Assembly: GCA_000002445.1 (NCBI GenBank)
Contig: CH464491.1
Span: 4,864,001 to 4,928,000, forward strand
Source: Trypanosoma brucei
Taxonomy: Eukaryota
Direction of reading: 5' to 3'
DNA length: 64,000 bases
The notes below the pieces were generated by a model. It saw only the letters and a program-made list of their open reading frames with translations. It did not search any database and was not told where the DNA came from. A program made the position numbers and the translations under genes. This document shows positions 1 through 64,000 of the stretch, piece after piece (the first letter of the stretch is position 1; every line of letters starts with the position of its first letter).

Positions 1-50
1 TGCACACACTCACAACGCACTCCTATCATTACCATTACTATTCATACAGT
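1..50 (-). repeat. 70-bp repeat fragment (VSG upstream imperfect repeat), minus orientation, belonging to a VSG left of the window
   Basis: The sequence tgcacacactcacaacgcactcctatcattaccattactattc is the reverse complement of the 70-bp repeat core GAGTGTTGTGAGTGTG plus its TAA/TGA-rich part. Confidence 0.55.
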
Positions 51-155
51 ATTACCATACTACGTTACACATACTGGCCACTATCTTTTATATCTTAAAA
101 AATTCTCTCAAAAATAGAAATTTTCATAAAATTCATAAATTTGAGCAAAAATCCC

Positions 156-1653
156 AAATATTTTTCATCCCCAAATCAAAAATGCAAGCAAAAGAGAATC
201 TTTAACCCCAACAGAATTGCTTCCTGTGGTGTTTGTAGCTCCTGTTTTATCCTTGTTTTATCCCTTTCCTTTCTTTTTGGGCTTGAAAATTTCCCCATCG
301 AGCTCGCATTTCCCTTTGCATTCAGTTCCCTTCTTACCTGCGCAATCGTCTTCCTTTGCTTGGACTGTTGCTGTTACTGATTTGGCTGTTTGTTTGCTCC
401 TTTTAAGCGCCAGGCCAGAGAAATAAGCCAGTGCCAAGCCATAGTCGTCGCTTTCTGCGGCTGCCTTGATACTCGTTTTGCTTTCTCCTTTCTCTTGGCT
501 TAGTTGCAGATCGTCTGTTTCTAGGGCGCTGGAAAACTTGTCAATTGTTTTGCTCTCATCGGTTCCTAGTAGTTTTTTTTACTGCATTTTTACCTTGTTC
601 GCTGTTGTTGTCTCTTTTGGGCTCCCCTAAAGCTAGCAGTGCTACTTGTCGTGCTACTGGGTCGATCGTCAACGAGCCGACAGTCTCGCTTTTAATGGAT
701 TTCTGTGTTTTCGGCATCTCCTTCCGATTTTTGCACAGGTAGTGGACGAGGCGCGTACGGTTTATAGCCGGCTCCTTAGAGTCCTCTTCGGCCGGTTTCT
801 GGCAGTCGCTGCCGGTTAGAAACGGTAGGGACATGGCTGATAGAGGTCCAGGCTTGCCGGCTGTCCCGGTTCCGAGGCCTAGAAAGTTGGTGCCGCCGAA
901 TGCCGCGTCGTCGCTGCATCCCTTCTGCGTTTCGCAGCTGTCTAGGTCAGCGCCGCTGCTGCCTTGGATTGCGATCTTGAGCAGTGTTGCCGGCGGTTTA
1001 AAGTCTGCGTCCTCCACACCTCTATAGCTAGTAGCTGCAGGTAATTCACTTGCTGCATTTCTTAGGTTATCTTCCTGATTTTTTTCTGCGCAGCCTGTAC
1101 CGGCTTTGCCGGTTGTCAGTTGTAGTGTTACCGAAACAGCCATAGCTGCTGAGGGTATTATGCTGGCCGGCGTGGTTTCCTTTGCTGCAGCCGAGTACTC
1201 TGGAGTTGTCGCGGCGTTATTGTGCTGCAGGGCTTCTAGCTGTCCCTTTCTTCTGCTTATTTCGAGCGCTGTAGTTTTTACTGCGCCTGCTGCTTTTTGC
1301 AACTCCTTTGTTGCTGCGAGAGACTTCCGGTGCGCCAACGCCGCCAGGAAAGAAAATGTTGCGCCTGTTGGTGTTCCTGAATGCATAGCTGTTGCCAGTT
1401 CTAGTGCTTTTTCTTCTTCTGTCAACTTCTTTACGTTATCCGCGAGGGTTGACGCTGCTGTGCCGAATGCGGACTTAAGATGGGTGAGGTACTCCAGCTC
1501 TGTGCAGGCGTCGTTTACTGCTTGTACTGCGTTGCCATCCGATTGGCTTGATCCTTTTTTCGTGAACAGAAGGGCTAAAGCGGCGACTATTAGCCTTAAT
1601 GGTGGTGCTTTTAAGCTGTCGGTTGTGCTCAGGTTTCGCCTCCTCTGCGTCAT
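156..1653 (-). pseudogene. VSG: VSG pseudogene. Signal peptide and N-terminal domain are in the frame of ORF 556..1833, with the real ATG at ~1653. The C-terminal domain and a class-2-like GPI tail (..TNTTGSNSVGVKDSLLLAFLIWG*) are in another frame at 156..555.
   Basis: MTQRRRNLSTTDSLKAPPLRLIVAALALLF has signal-peptide character and is followed by an Ala-rich alpha-helical domain. My minus-strand translation of 156..480 gives ..AKEDDCAGKKGTECKGKCELDGE.. and ..TNTTGSNSVGVKDSLLLAFLIWG*, out of frame with the upstream part. A 70-bp repeat lies upstream at 2606..2695. Confidence 0.8.
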
Positions 1654-2605
1654 GTTTTCAAAGCAGCTTGCTTGGTGTTTCGCTTTGTTTTTCGTTTGAT
1701 TTCTACCTGGTTCGAATGCTGCTTTGTCGTTAACGGTTAAAGGTGTTATTTGTTTTGCCTTACTTGGTGTAAGAAGGTATTTGAGAAAGTCCTTGTGTAA
1801 TTTGTCTTGCAGTCTTGACATCCATGGCGGCACAATGGTTATAAAAAGATGTGCATTGTCGGTGTTGCCTCTTTTGCCTTAGTGCCCCATAAAATCTGAT
1901 GTGCTTCCGGATTTTTTTTGCTGCCATCGCTGGCAAGACGATCTGCCTTGCAATTGGAATGCCGATTGACAAAAGCCAATAAAAAATTTCAGCTTGCCTC
2001 CGCAGAAGCTGAAAAGGTGCTACAGAATAACTCTCTTCAGCGCCTCTATCTATCTTCATCTACAGGTACGGTCTTCTATCAGTTTTAATGGGGCCAACAA
2101 ATAGCCGCCTATATTTTGCACTTGACATCTTGATTTGTTATAAAGTTTAAAAAAGGAGTCTTTTCCATTTCAGCTGTTGCCTACATTCATTTCTGCGCGG
2201 ACAATATGACATCGTTTTTTCTTCATCTTTCACTTGATGCATTATTTGATTCTATAGTAAGCCGTTCCTTATAAGTTTGTTTTATTCATATTAACTTTTC
2301 CTCTTTTTCATTTTCTGTTGCTTCTTCTCAGAATGATGTAGCGACTCCATATGCCTTGTACACTAAACTTTCTGTCTCCACCTCATGGATAGCTCCTTTA
2401 TTTCCTTGTGTAAAACAATGCCCAAAGTTATGTTTGTATTTGAAACTGCGAATATTTTCTTTTTATTTTTCTCACCATCTCTCTGTCGTTTTTCTTTTCC
2501 TTTGATAAAGTTCCTCACTCTCCCACCCATTTATTTACTCCAAAAACACATTTTCCATTATTTTAAGTGCTTTTGTTTTTCCATTAATATGGTCTTTACC
2601 TTTGT

Positions 2606-2695
2606 TCTTATTATAATATTCGTATACACACACTCACAACACTCTTCTATTATTATTATTAATACTAATATCACTATTAAAACTCTGAATAATAT
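2606..2695 (-). repeat. 70-bp repeat, one copy
   Basis: cgtatacacacactcacaacactcttctattattattattaatactaatatcactatt, reverse-complement orientation, located upstream of the minus-strand VSG at 156..1653. Confidence 0.7.
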
Positions 2696-2834
2696 ACATA
2701 TAGGAAATAAACAAATTATAATTGCACAAATTTTTCATACCATATAATCCTCTTACTTTGTACTCCTAAGCCACTGTCATATGAAATTTCAAAATTTAGA
2801 TAGTTTCAATATTTTTCACATTTGTTTCGACAAG

Positions 2835-2850
2835 TGTTAAAATATATTGA
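2835..2850 (-). promoter_or_regulatory. VSG 3'UTR 16-mer (14/16 match to TGATATATTTTAACAC)
   Basis: The plus strand reads gtgttaaaatatattg, which is the reverse complement of the 16-mer, immediately 3' of the VSG pseudogene ending at ~2859. Confidence 0.6.
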
Positions 2851-2858
2851 ACAGTAAA

Positions 2859-62410: not shown

Positions 62411-63000
62411 TATGCGCCGTAGCCGAGCCTCCGGCTGATGCAACCGAAAACAAAGAAAAAAAATGAATTCCAAAAATTTCAAAGGTTAAAAAAGGCCATA
62501 AAAGGGGAAAAAACGCGGAAACGAAAAAAAAAGGTAAAAAATAAAAAAATGATCGAAAAGAACCAAAAAAATAAAATATCGCCGCGGGGCTAATAAAAAA
62601 ATTACAAAACTCAAAAAAATTAAAAATTGAATGTGTAACAAAAAAATGTTAAAAAACTTAAAATTAAAAAAATGACTAAAAAAAATGGTAAAGTAAAAAA
62701 CATTGAAATTAAAATTTAAAAACTCGAAATGTTTTTTAAAAATCAAGAATGTTAAAAAATTTTTAACACTAAAAAAAATCAATAACAAAATTGAAAGCCG
62801 CTTGTAGAAAAACCAAGCCAAAAAACAAAAAAACTCGATGACGCAAGATATAAACAGCCAAAAAACCGTAGAAATTTGTCAAAAAGAGGGGGGGAGAATT
62901 GAGTCGGTGACGTTGGTGAAAAAAAATGTCAAAAGTGTAAAAATCAAAAATTTCTCGAAAAGGAACACAAAAAAGAAAAATTAAACGCCGCTGCTAAGCC
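62400..63000. repeat. Extremely A-rich low-complexity tract (T-rich on the VSG coding strand)
   Basis: Dominated by runs of a6-a10 separated by short words. The overlapping ORFs (for example 62486..62821) are low-complexity artefacts. Confidence 0.6.
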
Positions 63001-63010
63001 GCAAACTCAT

Positions 63011-63134
63011 AGGGATTAGGGTGCGCATAACAAAGCAGCCGTCGCTCCATTAAAATTTTGAAAAAGATCTAAAGCCGCGCCGTTTCGCTGCTAGAAAAAA
63101 ATTAGTATCAGGGGAAATAACCCTACCCTAAGCC
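63011..63134 (-). repeat. Degenerate telomere-like hexamers inside a block homologous to 53690..53900
   Basis: agggattagggtgcgcataacaaagcagccgtcgctccattaaa parallels agggttagggtccgcataacaaaagagctgctgcaccattaag at 53705..53748. The tract ccctaccctaagcc is at 63121..63134. Confidence 0.5.
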
Positions 63135-63317
63135 TGGAAACACTCCCTAACCTACCTACCAACTTCCTACCTCCCTACCCACCTCCTCTCCTGCCTCGTT
63201 GCACAAAAAATTCAAAAAGAAAAAAATGGGAAAAATTCTTTTATTTGTTAGAAAAAAATTTACAGAATCAGAAACTTACTACCAGGAAACACATACAATA
63301 TCCTTGACTGGTTTTAC

Positions 63318-63333
63318 GTGTTAAAATATATCA
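63318..63333 (-). promoter_or_regulatory. VSG 3'UTR 16-mer, exact reverse complement
   Basis: The plus strand reads gtgttaaaatatatca. Confidence 0.7.
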
Positions 63334-63340
63334 GAAGTTT

Positions 63341-64000
63341 TCAAATAGCAATAATTTTTAGCAAAGGAGAAAAAGAGGGGAAAATTGTTTTAAACAGCAA
63401 GGCTACAAAAGCAGCAGAAACCACGGTGAGGGCGAATTTCTTGGTTAGTAGAAAACTACCATTTCGGCATTTTTCTGTATCCTTGTCATCTTCATTATCT
63501 TTACCTTTTCTCCATGCACAATTTTGTTTATCACCTGTTTTGTCATTTTCACAAGCGGCTTTATCACTGCCGTGTCTTGCACATCCAGATGTAGCTGCTG
63601 CTGCTCCTGAAGCTCCATCTCCTGCCCCTTGGTTTGCCTGTCCTTCTCCATCTTTAGGTTTGCATGTTCCACCTGTTTCAGTTTTTCCATCCCATTTGCA
63701 GTTATTTTCTGTACATGTGGTGTTTGTTTCATGTTTGCTGCAAGTTTTTTTACCGTGCTCGACTGGGTTGCCGTCACTGCCGGCAGGTTTGCTGGTTTCT
63801 ACTGTCCTTGAGGCGGCAGCTTTTAGTTCTGCCCTTGCCGCAGCCTGGATGTTGGTTAACTCCCTTGTGAGCTCTGCGTTCTGTAACATTACTGCTTCGG
63901 CAGCATCTAGTTTGTCTGCCGCCGACAGTAGTTTTGCTTCCCACGGTAGTTGACCATTGCCGTCGGTTAGGTGCGGTGCGTAGTCGACACAGACCCCGTT
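63341..64000 (-). CDS. VSG: VSG 3' portion: end of the N-domain, the C-terminal domain and a class-1 GPI signal. The gene continues beyond the window end. The stop after ..AAFVALLF is lost through a 1-nt deletion.
   Basis: ORF 63341..63889 reads ..KQNCAWRKGKDNEDDKDTEKCRNGSFLLTKKFALTVVSAAFVALLFKTIFPSFSPLLKIIAI*. The GPI signal resembles that of MITat1.2-type VSGs. The sequence ctgtttaaaac is found where ctgttttaa is expected. The frame stays open to position 64000. Confidence 0.85.
   Translation of the reverse strand, partial: NGVCVDYAPHLTDGNGQLPWEAKLLSAADKLDAAEAVMLQNAELTRELTNIQAAARAELKAAASRTVETSKPAGSDGNPVEHGKKTCSKHETNTTCTENNCKWDGKTETGGTCKPKDGEGQANQGAGDGASGAAAATSGCARHGSDKAACENDKTGDKQNCAWRKGKDNEDDKDTEKCRNGSFLLTKKFALTVVSAAFVALLFKTIFPSFSPLLKIIAI

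What the first reader, a model, noticed from the sequence alone, without database searches (positions are those of the whole stretch)
1..64000. Locus is a Trypanozoon subtelomeric VSG array, so prokaryote-style annotation does not apply
Seen directly in the sequence:
- At least 15 ORFs carry VSG hallmarks: a cleavable signal peptide, an Ala-rich N-domain, a Cys-rich C-domain, and an ending of either CKDSSFLVNKKFAL..AAFVALLF (class 1) or NTTGSNSFVIKKVPLWLAVFILG (class 2).
- Each is preceded on its own strand by 70-bp repeats and followed by the 16-mer TGATATATTTTAACAC.
- ingi/RIME elements, which have 7SL-like 5' termini, are present.

Established knowledge: this combination is diagnostic of T. 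brucei-group silent VSG arrays. These are transcriptionally silent, mostly pseudogenic donor repertoires used for antigenic variation by gene conversion. A defence-island or operon interpretation would be wrong.
Basis: partly seen in the sequence, partly recalled or inferred. Interest (0 to 1): 0.5.

Follow-up and report, generated by a model that had tools for sequence, protein, structure and literature searches.

The report
Silent VSG gene array, Trypanosoma brucei group
This 64-kb window is an ordinary, already well-described piece of an African trypanosome (Trypanosoma brucei group) chromosome: a storage array of mostly broken surface-coat (VSG) genes with their usual flanking repeats and retrotransposons, so bacterial-style annotation does not apply.

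Summary
The window carries 17 VSG-derived units in three strand blocks: four on the minus strand (0.3-10.7 kb), six on the plus strand (22.4-40.1 kb) and seven on the minus strand (45.6-64 kb). All 17 are supported by Pfam VSG domains, named T. brucei or T. equiperdum VSG homologues, solved VSG structures, or DNA similarity to verified units. Only two are uninterrupted ORFs (32376-33887 +, 58666-60231 -). The rest carry frameshifts or in-frame stops, lack a start, are C-terminal fragments, or are cut by an ingi element, an N gap or the window edge. Clear 70-bp repeats precede 8 units, degenerate relics precede 5 more, and 3 have none. The 3'UTR 16-mer is exact 3 times and within 2 mismatches 8 times, always on the VSG strand. 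The window also holds one full-length but defective ingi (40314-45576 -), two ingi/RIME 5' ends and one degenerate ingi-related element. No complete RIME is present. The "7SL-like 5' terminus" claim is wrong: the terminus is the Pr77 hallmark. The closest DNA is a T. equiperdum OVI contig, 99.6-99.9% identical and colinear over 8.7 kb. Already known; low interest.

The parts
261..1653 (-). VSG pseudogene m4 (A-like N-domain). ATG and signal-like start MTQRRR..LIVAALALLF. Frameshift near 560-580; no recognisable GPI tail or 16-mer.
   Evidence: 77% identical to T. brucei VSG 1125.2781. No Pfam hit. Frames read; coordinates.
2946..4413 (-). VSG pseudogene m3 (B-type), at least 2 frameshifts. The 16-mer lies at 2834-2849 (2 mismatches).
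   Evidence: PF13206 E=2e-44 and 1e-11. Frames; 16-mer.
6778..8351 (-). VSG pseudogene m2 (A-type). One in-frame stop at 7557-7559 plus a frameshift. Class-1-like tail CKDSSFFLRQKFALIVSAFVSLVAF. The 16-mer lies at 6749-6764 (2 mismatches).
   Evidence: PF00913 E=7e-43 and PF00913/PF10659 on the second piece..
9413..10735 (-). VSG pseudogene m1, degenerate, with several in-frame stops. Exact 16-mer at 9306-9321. No 70-bp repeat upstream.
   Evidence: 68% identical to T. brucei VSG ARB50676.1, whose cluster includes VSG 1056. Weak profile match to the end of the A-type N-domain..
22421..23992 (+). VSG p1. N- and C-domains are full length, but the GPI signal is frameshifted (TKKLALSMTAAFVSLLTF lies in another frame, 23895-23948).
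   Evidence: PF10659 E=9e-10. 80% DNA identity to the 3' third of n3..
25889..27364 (+). VSG pseudogene p2 (B-type). No ATG, in-frame stop at 26201-26203, C-terminal frameshift. The 16-mer lies at 27483-27498 (2 mismatches).
   Evidence: PF13206 E=9e-19 and 2e-29..
28812..30427 (+). VSG p3 (A-type). The ORF 28812-30377 is full length but ends ..KKCAEMVDF. The GPI signal CRNGRFLENKQLAVIVSSFVSLL lies in another frame (30356-30424). The 16-mer lies at 30514-30529 (1 mismatch).
   Evidence: PF10659 E=1e-6 and PF00913 E=8e-4, below Pfam's cut-off..
32376..33887 (+). VSG p4, an intact ORF (503 aa) with a signal-like N-terminus and the class-2 tail NTTGSNSFVIKKVPLWLAVFILG.
   Evidence: 99% identical to a T. 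equiperdum OVI VSG and 86% to T. brucei VSG 1125.4169. PF00913. VSGsur E=1e-16.
35305..36766 (+). VSG p5 (A-type). The ORF ends at 36720 without a GPI signal; a degenerate tail lies in another frame. The same 471-aa ORF is called in T. equiperdum OVI.
   Evidence: PF00913 E=5e-77 and PF10659 E=4e-8. L001 gene 3880-5295..
38864..40082 (+). VSG pseudogene p6 (B-type). In-frame stop at 39566-39568, shared with T. equiperdum OVI. The 3' end is lost in the N gap.
   Evidence: PF13206 E=4e-34 and 2e-19. L001 gene 7438-8142 is the same 234-aa piece.
45577..47002 (-). VSG pseudogene n7 (B-type), frameshifted. Its GPI-signal codons ..SSFVANRKF abut the ingi 5' end directly.
   Evidence: PF13206 E=2e-15 and 1e-11. 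Frames; sequence.
48861..50417 (-). VSG pseudogene n6 (B-type). No start, several frameshifts, truncated tail CRNVICLLNKNKI, no 16-mer.
   Evidence: PF13206 E=5e-19. PF10659 E=4e-11..
52950..53316 (-). VSG 3' fragment n5 (C-terminal domain and GPI tail only).
   Evidence: PF10659 E=9e-5. Tail ..NKKFALMAAVFVSIVYFFEF.
54223..55787 (-). VSG pseudogene n4 (B-type). One frameshift; good tail CRNGSFLLNKQFALSVVSSAFVGLIF. Exact 16-mer at 54168-54183.
   Evidence: PF13206 E=3e-27 and 2e-22; PF10659 E=5e-26..
58666..60231 (-). VSG n3, an intact ORF (521 aa) with a class-1-like tail CQD|SSILVNKHLDLTMVAAFISFVGF (23 residues). The 16-mer lies at 58578-58593 (1 mismatch).
   Evidence: PF10659 E=4e-16. Solved VSG397 (8b3e) E=1.6e-132 over residues 14-434.
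61944..62407 (-). VSG 3' fragment n2 (C-terminal domain pieces and GPI tail, frameshifted).
   Evidence: 73-76% DNA identity to the Pfam-verified C-domains of n1 and n4. Tail ..FANKKLAMMAASFVSLVLF. No Pfam hit on the piece tested.
63344..64000 (-). VSG n1, 3' part only (cut by the window end). Tail CRNGSFLLTKKFALTVVSAAFVALLF, with the usual stop lost. Exact 16-mer at 63318-63333.
   Evidence: PF10659 E=7e-27..
40314..45576 (-). Full-length ingi non-LTR retrotransposon (5.26 kb). Pr77 5' end CCCTGGCGACGCCGGCC..., A9 tail at 40321-40329. The ORF is broken by one in-frame stop (42521-42523) and frameshifts. No clear target-site duplication.
   Evidence: Endonuclease and RT domains, then RNase H and a C2H2 finger. 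95.1% identical end to end to an ingi at another locus of T. b. equiperdum IVM-t1. 93% protein identity. Ends read.
40215..40308 (-). Second ingi/RIME 5' end (Pr77). It starts 12 bp after the ingi poly(A) and runs into the N gap.
   Evidence: 87-90% identical to the ingi 5' end. Sequence.
56056..56297 (-). Isolated 5' 242 bp of an ingi/RIME. No 3' half and no poly(A). TGATAATGGG is present on both sides.
   Evidence: 95% identical to the ingi 5' end. Sequence.
15100..19350 (+). Degenerate ingi-related element (DIRE-like), many stops and frameshifts. It sits where the gene strand switches from minus to plus.
   Evidence: tblastn 26-40% amino-acid identity to the ingi ORF along 15619-18868. RVT_1 E=1e-9. 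Weak endonuclease hit. Weak Pr77 match at 15141-15169.
27666..28275 (+). 70-bp repeat tract, 8 copies (about 81-bp period with a (TAA)n spacer), upstream of p3.
30944..31386 (+). 70-bp repeat tract, 6 copies, upstream of p4. It is preceded by (TAA)n and the 100-N gap at 30772-30871.
58042..58257 (-). 70-bp repeat tract, 3 copies, plus (TAT)n at 58260-58402. It lies downstream of n3 and upstream of n4.
21008..21133 (+). 70-bp repeats, 2 copies, upstream of p1.
36962..37070 (+). 70-bp repeats, 1-2 copies, upstream of p6.
8969..9085 (-). 70-bp repeats, 2 copies, upstream of m2.
6374..6517 (-). 70-bp repeats, 2 copies, upstream of m3.
2602..2646 (-). 70-bp repeat, 1 copy, upstream of m4.
40083..40182 (.). 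100-N assembly gap, exactly at the switch from plus-strand to minus-strand genes.
   Evidence: The T. equiperdum OVI contig continues differently past this point.

Best explanation
The window is nuclear DNA of a Trypanozoon trypanosome (the T. brucei / T. evansi / T. equiperdum group). The closest available sequence is T. equiperdum OVI.

It is a silent-archive VSG array with 17 VSG cassettes, about one per 3.8 kb. A typical cassette runs: short 70-bp-repeat tract, 0.7-2 kb spacer, VSG coding region, then a 3'UTR with the 16-mer. ingi-clade retroelements are interspersed.

Shown here: the gene content, the repeat architecture, the high pseudogene fraction and the taxonomic affinity.

Inferred from established knowledge of T. 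brucei antigenic variation:
- These cassettes are not transcribed in place.
- They act as donors. An intact gene can be copied whole into a telomeric expression site by gene conversion, bounded upstream by 70-bp repeats and downstream by the conserved C-terminal and 3'UTR sequence.
- Pseudogenes contribute segments to mosaic VSGs.
For: VSG domains and homologues.
- VSG N-domain (A and B type) and C-domain Pfam hits fall on 21 ORF pieces.
- Named T. brucei or T. equiperdum VSG homologues cover the pieces Pfam missed.
- Solved VSG structures match: VSG397 at E=1.6e-132, VSGsur at 1e-16.

Repeat architecture.
- 24 70-bp repeat cores in tracts of 1-8 copies, always on the strand of the adjacent VSGs.
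- The 16-mer occurs 8 times within 2 mismatches against 0.08 expected, always just 3' of a VSG. It is the published VSG 3'UTR motif (PMC9044945).

Integrity.
- Only 2 of 15 fully evaluable units are intact.
- Two of the defects are reproduced in an independent T. equiperdum assembly.

Retroelements.
- A full-length ingi has its ends defined by a 95% identical copy at a different locus in T. b. equiperdum.
- A DIRE-like element and ingi/RIME 5' ends are also present.

Taxonomy and context.
- 99.6-99.9% colinearity with T. equiperdum OVI contig CZPT02000546.1 over 8.7 kb.
- 70-bp repeats are restricted to the T. brucei group among sequenced African trypanosomes (PMC4858185).
- AT skew flips with the three gene-strand blocks.
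- No terminal telomere tract; only 2-3.5 hexamer copies internally.
- None of the ORF pieces scanned with Pfam outside the VSG and retroelement units reached a family cut-off; the best was a weak Galactosyl_T match.
Against: Nothing contradicts the explanation. The limits are as follows.
- Transcriptional silence, donor function and chromosomal (subtelomeric) position cannot be tested from sequence with these tools.
- The exact source genome was not identified. Six exact-protein look-ups of window ORFs found nothing.
- Some frameshifts could be errors of a draft assembly that contains N gaps.
- The plus-to-minus strand switch at 40.1 kb coincides with a 100-N gap, and the T. equiperdum OVI contig continues differently there. 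Adjacency of the two halves is therefore unverified.
Confidence: 0.95

Rival explanations
1. The locus is a telomeric VSG expression site (bloodstream or metacyclic) or a minichromosome end, rather than an internal silent array.
For: - VSGs with 70-bp repeats and 16-mers also occur at expression sites and minichromosome ends.
- Short TTAGGG runs lie 240-390 nt downstream of three VSGs. That is within the 200-1590 nt VSG-to-telomere distance reported for expression sites (PMC2567434).
Against: - There are 17 VSG units in 64 kb on both strands. An expression site normally has one terminal VSG.
- 70-bp tracts are only 1-8 copies, against 0.2-7.1 kb in expression sites (PMC2567434).
- The telomere-like runs have only 2-3.5 copies, are internal, and are followed by further cassettes.
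- No 177-bp repeats appear in the tandem-repeat scan.
- No ESAG-type domain was seen among the ORFs scanned.
Confidence: 0.02
2. The window is a scaffold whose parts are not truly adjacent. The three strand blocks, in particular the join at 40083-40182, would then be a product of assembly rather than real genome structure. Each part would still be VSG array sequence.
For: - The plus-to-minus switch falls exactly on a 100-N gap.
- The near-identical T. equiperdum OVI contig continues past window 40082 with the rest of p6, a 70-bp repeat, another A-type VSG and a plus-strand Pr77 end. None of these follows the gap in the window.
- Both contig ends at the gap lie in or near ingi/RIME sequence, which typically breaks assemblies.
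Against: - A gap of unknown true size could hold the missing OVI-like sequence.
- Strand switches are real elsewhere in the window: the minus-to-plus switch at 11-21 kb lies in gap-free sequence, and a DIRE-like element sits there.
Confidence: 0.3
3. The array belongs to a non-Trypanozoon African trypanosome (T. congolense or T. vivax) or to another kinetoplastid.
For: These species also have VSG families and ingi-clade elements with a Pr77 hallmark (PMC4035085).
Against: - 99% protein identity and 99.6-99.9% DNA identity to T. equiperdum, and 68-86% to T. brucei VSGs.
- The ingi is 95% identical to a T. b. equiperdum copy.
Confidence: 0.005
4. The window is a prokaryotic or viral locus (a defence island or operon) whose ORFs only resemble VSGs by composition.
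For: None, beyond the fact that a table-11 ORF finder lists long ORFs.
Against: - Specific Pfam VSG families score down to E=5e-77.
- A solved VSG structure matches at E=1.6e-132.
- A eukaryotic non-LTR retrotransposon is present.
- There are no tRNA genes or Rfam families.
- The GTG and TTG 'starts' listed are artefacts of the bacterial code. The real starts are downstream ATGs followed by signal-like peptides.
Confidence: 0.001

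Closest known systems
Subtelomeric silent VSG arrays of T. brucei megabase chromosomes (TREU927, Lister 427)
   Same: - Tandem VSG genes and pseudogenes of A and B N-domain types.
- Short 70-bp repeat tracts upstream, and the 16-mer in the 3'UTR.
- A majority of pseudogenes and fragments.
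- Interspersed ingi, RIME and DIRE elements.
- Blocks of genes sharing one strand.
   Different: Nothing in kind. The individual VSG sequences are strain-specific: the best T. brucei matches are only 68-86% identical. Direct comparison with those assemblies could not be run here.
T. equiperdum OVI contig CZPT02000546.1 (GCA_001457755.2)
   Same: Colinear with window 31374-40082 at 99.6-99.9% identity, with 15 mismatches and 2 gap openings in 8.6 kb. It carries the same three VSGs with the same ORF defects.
   Different: - It is not identical, so the window is another strain or assembly of a very close lineage.
- Past window 40082 the OVI contig continues with sequence absent from the window.
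- The window proteins tried, including the three full-length VSG ORFs p3, p4 and n3, are not on record as exact sequences.
ingi / RIME non-LTR retrotransposons (ingi/L1Tc clade) and DIRE
   Same: - 5.26-kb element with a Pr77-type 5' end.
- One long frame encoding AP-endonuclease, RT, RNase H and a C2H2 finger.
- Short poly(A) tail.
- 95% identical over its full length to a copy in T. b. equiperdum IVM-t1.
- The 15.1-19.4 kb element is 26-40% identical at protein level, as expected of a DIRE.
   Different: - This ingi has no clear 12-bp target-site duplication, and its ORF is broken.
- No complete roughly 0.5-kb RIME is present. There is only one 242-bp 5' piece and one 5' end cut by a gap.
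- The 5' end is not 7SL-related.
Bloodstream VSG expression sites
   Same: The cassette layout of 70-bp repeats, VSG and 16-mer. Telomere-type hexamers lie a few hundred nt after three of the VSGs.
   Different: Many VSGs instead of one, very short 70-bp tracts, no ESAGs detected, and no terminal telomere.

Membership tests
Trypanozoon silent VSG array | Multiple tandem genes or pseudogenes with a VSG N-terminal domain (A or B type) and a VSG C-terminal domain | tested here: met
   17 units. Pfam PF00913, PF13206 and PF10659 hits, named VSG homologues and PDB VSG matches.
Trypanozoon silent VSG array | Short tracts of 70-bp repeats upstream of the VSGs, in the same orientation | tested here: met
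   24 cores in tracts of 1-8 copies, all strand-consistent. Clear copies precede 8 units, relics precede 5, and 3 have none.
Trypanozoon silent VSG array | Conserved 16-mer TGATATATTTTAACAC in the VSG 3'UTR | tested here: met
   3 exact copies and 8 within 2 mismatches, against 0.08 expected, all on the VSG strand just after a VSG 3' end. The motif is as published (PMC9044945). It is not present after every unit.
Trypanozoon silent VSG array | Most members are pseudogenes or fragments | tested here: met
   2 of 15 fully evaluable units are intact. Two defects are shared with the T. equiperdum OVI assembly.
Trypanozoon silent VSG array | Taxon: best matches within the T. brucei group | tested here: met
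   99% protein and 99.6-99.9% DNA identity to T. equiperdum OVI. T. brucei VSGs match at 68-86%.
Trypanozoon silent VSG array | Not an expression site: no ESAGs or promoter, no long 70-bp tract, no terminal telomere | tested here: inconclusive
   No long telomere tract, and 70-bp tracts have at most 8 copies. No ESAG-type Pfam domain was seen in the ORFs scanned, but not every small ORF was scanned and promoters cannot be searched here.
Trypanozoon silent VSG array | Subtelomeric position on a megabase chromosome | not testable with these tools
   No Trypanozoon chromosome assemblies can be searched. The matching OVI contig is only 10.9 kb.
Trypanozoon silent VSG array | Transcriptionally silent; used as a gene-conversion donor | not testable with these tools
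   This needs RNA-seq or VSG-seq and switching experiments. Here it is inferred from the literature (PMC3467770, PMC4858185).
ingi retrotransposon | Element of about 5.2 kb with the conserved 77-79 nt 5' hallmark (Pr77) and a 3' poly(A) | tested here: met
   Spans 45576 to 40314, 5263 bp. The same 5' 79-242 nt recurs at three element starts in the window and at the end of the OVI contig. A9 tail. End-to-end 95% match to an independent copy.
ingi retrotransposon | [quoted passage not shown] | tested here: met
   PF14529, PF00078, PF00075 and a C2H2 finger, in order. The frame is broken by one stop and by frameshifts, so this copy is defective.
ingi retrotransposon | Flanking target-site duplication (7-12 bp) | tested here: not met
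   The 5' flank AATAGAAAATTT does not match the 3' flank TTTTGCTTCATA; at most AAAATTT is shared, and that overlaps the A tail. This is compatible with later rearrangement, and it does not affect identity as an ingi.
RIME | Element of about 0.5 kb made of the ingi 5' ~250 bp and 3' ~250 bp, with poly(A) | tested here: not met
   56297 to 56056 is only the 5' 242 bp, with no 3' half or A tail. The 40308 copy is cut by the N gap. No complete RIME is in the window.
   No SRP family at gathering threshold in the window, nor at E<=10 on 45250-45650. PMC2323293 states that RIME derives from ingi by deletion, in contrast to 7SL-, tRNA- or 5S-derived SINEs.

The most novel reading that the evidence does not exclude
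Three cassettes carry short telomere-type repeats on the VSG sense strand, 240-390 nt after the coding end: p4 at 34132-34143, n4 at 53816-53836, and n1 at about 63115-63150.

Two of them (n4, n1) are followed about 110 nt later by an inverted CCCTAA motif, then a T-rich stretch, then a VSG C-terminal-only fragment.

These could be scars of former chromosome ends. That would mean array cassettes were seeded from telomeric VSG copies and later internalised, which would give a sequence marker for tracing flux from telomeres into arrays. The evidence does not exclude this. It also does not show that the pattern is more than a known feature of VSG 3' flanks.
Probability: 0.25. Interest if true: 0.3.

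Novelty: already known. Interest (0 to 1): 0.07.

Why it matters
The main value is housekeeping. The window should be removed from any prokaryote or phage-oriented screen. Table-11 ORFs with GTG or TTG starts, promoter and terminator scans, and operon or defence-island logic are all meaningless here.

Biologically it is a textbook example of the trypanosome antigen archive. It adds a stretch of array sequence from a lineage very close to T. equiperdum OVI. That could be of minor use for comparing how fast VSG archives diverge between T. brucei-group lineages.

Tried and rejected
- Pfam misses some VSG N-domains. The pieces at 556-1833, 9416-10871 and 62000-62407 gave no hit. PDB sequence searches of two of them were also empty.
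- Local phmmer with 14 VSGs was too insensitive. A profile comparison of 10016-10753 was not significant. These pieces were resolved by homologue searches instead.
- Exact-sequence look-ups of six window proteins found no record, so the source assembly was not identified.
- Rfam found nothing in the window and no 7SL/SRP or ribozyme family on the ingi 5' end. ARAGORN found no tRNAs.
- A possible UDP-Gal/GlcNAc glycosyltransferase pseudogene at 4562-5687(-) reached only E=0.008-0.02 against Galactosyl_T, below the cut-off, even after joining the frames. It is left as a hint.
- The region 10.9-13.2 kb(-) was searched for a further VSG, because its upstream 1 kb resembles the upstream region of p2. 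None was found.
- The search collections for phages, plasmids, E. coli, GTDB genomes and metagenomes were not used, because they cannot contain trypanosome chromosomes.
- Marcello & Barry 2007 could not be read; it is not held.

Full report
**Observation**

The window is 36-50% G+C. Its AT skew changes sign twice, at about 16 kb and about 40 kb. It contains 201 N: two 100-N gaps at 30772-30871 and 40083-40182, plus a single N at 40214.

A bacterial-code ORF list gives 13 ORFs of 250 aa or more. Ten of these are VSG-like and three belong to retrotransposons.

**VSG content**

Pfam places 21 stop-to-stop ORF pieces in three VSG families:
- A-type N-domain (PF00913, down to E=5e-77);
- B-type N-domain (PF13206, down to 2e-44);
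- C-terminal domain (PF10659, down to 7e-27).

Two further pieces were missed by Pfam:
- 559-1878(-) is 77% identical to T. brucei VSG 1125.2781.
- 10016-10753(-) is 68% identical to T. brucei VSG ARB50676.1, whose cluster includes Lister 427 VSG 1056.

The intact ORF 58666-60231(-) matches the solved VSG397 structure sequence at E=1.6e-132. ORF 32376-33887(+) matches VSGsur and MITat1.2.

Reading all frames, the pieces collapse into 17 units:
- four on the minus strand, between 261 and 10735;
- six on the plus strand, between 22421 and 40082;
- seven on the minus strand, between 45577 and 64000.

Only two units are uninterrupted from an ATG with a signal-like peptide to a GPI signal:
- 32376-33887, with the class-2 tail NTTGSNSFVIKKVPLWLAVFILG;
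- 58666-60231, with a class-1-like 23-residue tail.

The other units are defective or incomplete:
- Three are full length but have the GPI signal in another frame (22421, 28812, 35305).
- Eight carry frameshifts, in-frame stops or no start.
- Two are C-terminal fragments only (52950-53316 and 61944-62407).
- Three are cut, two of which also appear in the defect list above: one by an ingi (45577-47002), one by the N gap (38864-40082), and one by the window edge (63344-64000).

The defects in two units, 35305-36720 and 38864-39568, are reproduced in an independent T. equiperdum assembly. At least some defects are therefore not sequencing errors.

**Flanking repeats**

Tandem Repeats Finder and a fuzzy search find 24 copies of the 70-bp repeat core GAGAGTGTTGTGAGTGTGTATATACGAATATTATAATAAGAGCAG with (TAA)n spacers. 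They occur in tracts of 1-8 copies, always on the strand of the adjacent VSGs.

A profile search adds strand-consistent relics with E of 0.001-0.1 at 24209-24418, 34175-34200, 48515-48544, 52590-52631, 61678-61705 and 3-22.

Clear repeats therefore precede 8 units and relics precede 5. Three units have none.

The 16-mer TGATATATTTTAACAC is exact 3 times and within 2 mismatches 8 times, against 0.08 expected. Each copy lies on the VSG strand just after a VSG 3' end. This is the published VSG 3'UTR motif (PMC9044945).

**Retroelements**

The ORFs at 42521-45076(-) and 41216-42505(-) carry endonuclease and RT domains, then RNase H and a C2H2 finger. They lie in one frame, separated by a single stop codon.

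The element starts at 45576 with CCCTGGCGACGCCGGCCACCTCAACG... and ends with an A9 tail at 40321-40329.

An ingi at a different locus of T. b. equiperdum IVM-t1 (chromosome CM010675.1, position 2.16-2.19 Mb of 2.37 Mb) aligns end to end at 95.1% with 45576 to 40314, while the flanks differ. This fixes the boundaries of a 5.26-kb mobile element.

Further observations on the retroelements:
- The ingi 5' end directly interrupts the GPI-signal codons ..SSFVANRKF of the upstream VSG.
- Twelve bp after its A tail a second copy of the 5' end begins (40308) and runs into the N gap.
- A third copy, of the 5' 242 bp only, lies at 56297 to 56056.
- A 4-kb element on the plus strand (about 15100-19350) is 26-40% identical to the ingi protein and full of stops, which makes it DIRE-like.
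- No complete RIME is present.

The "7SL-like" description is not supported. There is no SRP hit in Rfam. Bringaud et al. state that RIME derives from ingi by internal deletion, unlike 7SL-, tRNA- or 5S-derived SINEs (PMC2323293). The conserved 5' end is the Pr77 hallmark, an internal promoter and HDV-like ribozyme in L1Tc (PMC4035085).

**Origin**

The best protein hit of 32376-33887 is a T. equiperdum OVI VSG at 99%. The next best is T. brucei EATRO1125 at 86%.

The OVI contig CZPT02000546.1 is colinear with window 31374-40082 at 99.6-99.9% identity.

70-bp repeats are reported in T. brucei, T. b. gambiense and T. evansi, but not in T. congolense or T. vivax (PMC4858185).

The window is therefore Trypanozoon, from a lineage very close to T. 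equiperdum OVI. The exact assembly was not identified, because the exact-protein look-ups failed.

**Mechanism**

Shown: the cassette architecture and the decay state of the genes.

Inferred from established knowledge (PMC3467770; PMC4858185; PMC12975129):
- These are silent donors.
- An intact gene is copied into a telomeric expression site by gene conversion that starts in the 70-bp repeats and ends in the conserved 3' coding or UTR sequence.
- Pseudogenes contribute segments to mosaic VSGs.

None of this can be tested with the tools available here.

**Caveat on structure**

The plus-to-minus strand switch at 40.1 kb sits on a 100-N gap.

The OVI contig continues beyond window 40082 with the rest of that VSG, a 70-bp repeat, another A-type VSG and a plus-strand Pr77 end. 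None of these follows the gap in the window. Adjacency across the gap is therefore unverified.

The minus-to-plus switch at 11-21 kb is in gap-free sequence, and the DIRE-like element lies within it.

**Verdict**

This is a known kind of locus in a known group of organisms, of low interest. Its practical value is to flag that prokaryote-style annotation must not be applied.

Noticed in passing
53704-54060 (-), 62990-63170 (-), 34132-34143 (+): Interstitial telomere-type repeats lie on the VSG sense strand, 240-390 nt after three VSG coding ends.
- After the VSG ending at 54226: (TTAGGG)3.5 at 53836-53816.
- After the one ending near 63392: GGTTAGGG..CTTAGGGTAGGGTTA at about 63150-63115.
- After the intact VSG ending at 33887: TTAGGGTTAGGG at 34132-34143.

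The first two are each followed about 110 nt later by an inverted CCCTAA motif, a T-rich stretch and a VSG C-terminal-only fragment, forming two paralogous units of about 2.3 kb. (TTAGGG)3 is expected 0 times by chance. The distances fit the 200-1590 nt VSG-to-telomere spacing reported for expression sites (PMC2567434). They may be scars of a telomeric past.
   Followed up: partly
45577-45603 (-) and 40309-40330 (-): The ingi 5' end splits the GPI-signal codons (..SSFVANRKF|) of the upstream VSG pseudogene. Exactly 12 bp (TTTTGCTTCATA) after the ingi A9 tail a second ingi/RIME 5' end begins. The ingi itself has no matching target-site duplication, which suggests repeated insertion at one site, or recombination between elements.
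   Followed up: partly
56056-56297 (-): A solitary 242-bp ingi/RIME 5' piece without a 3' half or poly(A). It is bracketed by TGATAATGGG on both sides; the TGAT of the 3' copy belongs to the element. It lies about 270 bp upstream of the start of a B-type VSG. This looks like a microhomology-mediated deletion of the rest of the element.
   Followed up: no
4562-5687 (-): Three consecutive ORF pieces lie between a 70-bp repeat (6374) and the VSG at 4413. They have motifs reminiscent of trypanosome UDP-Gal/GlcNAc-dependent glycosyltransferases (..VVAGIPSIDNDERFRRRNLQRETC....YIMKVNNDIFM..). Pfam Galactosyl_T reaches only E=0.008-0.02, below the cut-off, so this is a possible pseudogene and is unproven.
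   Followed up: partly
13203-14245 vs 24701-25722: An inverted 1-kb duplicate at 70% identity. One copy is the upstream region of the B-type VSG at 25889. It includes a conserved ORF piece (24932-25318(+), matching 14010-13659(-) at 60-70% amino-acid identity) with no Pfam family. No VSG follows the 13-kb copy; 10.9-13.2 kb is degenerate AT-rich sequence.
   Followed up: partly
40083-40182 and L001:8657-10945: The near-identical T. equiperdum OVI contig continues past the window's N gap with about 2.3 kb that is absent from the window: a VSG 3' end, a 70-bp repeat, an A-type VSG interrupted by a plus-strand Pr77 end. The gap therefore hides sequence, or the scaffold join is wrong.
   Followed up: partly
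23393-23950 (+) vs 58667-59223 (-): Two VSGs in different strand blocks share 80% DNA identity over the last 560 bp (end of the N-domain, the C-domain and the tail), while their N-terminal parts differ. This is the kind of 3' homology that supports segmental conversion.
   Followed up: no
whole window: Several long ORFs in the table-11 list begin at GTG or TTG (for example 22346, 35257, 556). These starts are artefacts of the bacterial code. The real starts are downstream ATGs followed by hydrophobic signal-like peptides.
   Followed up: yes
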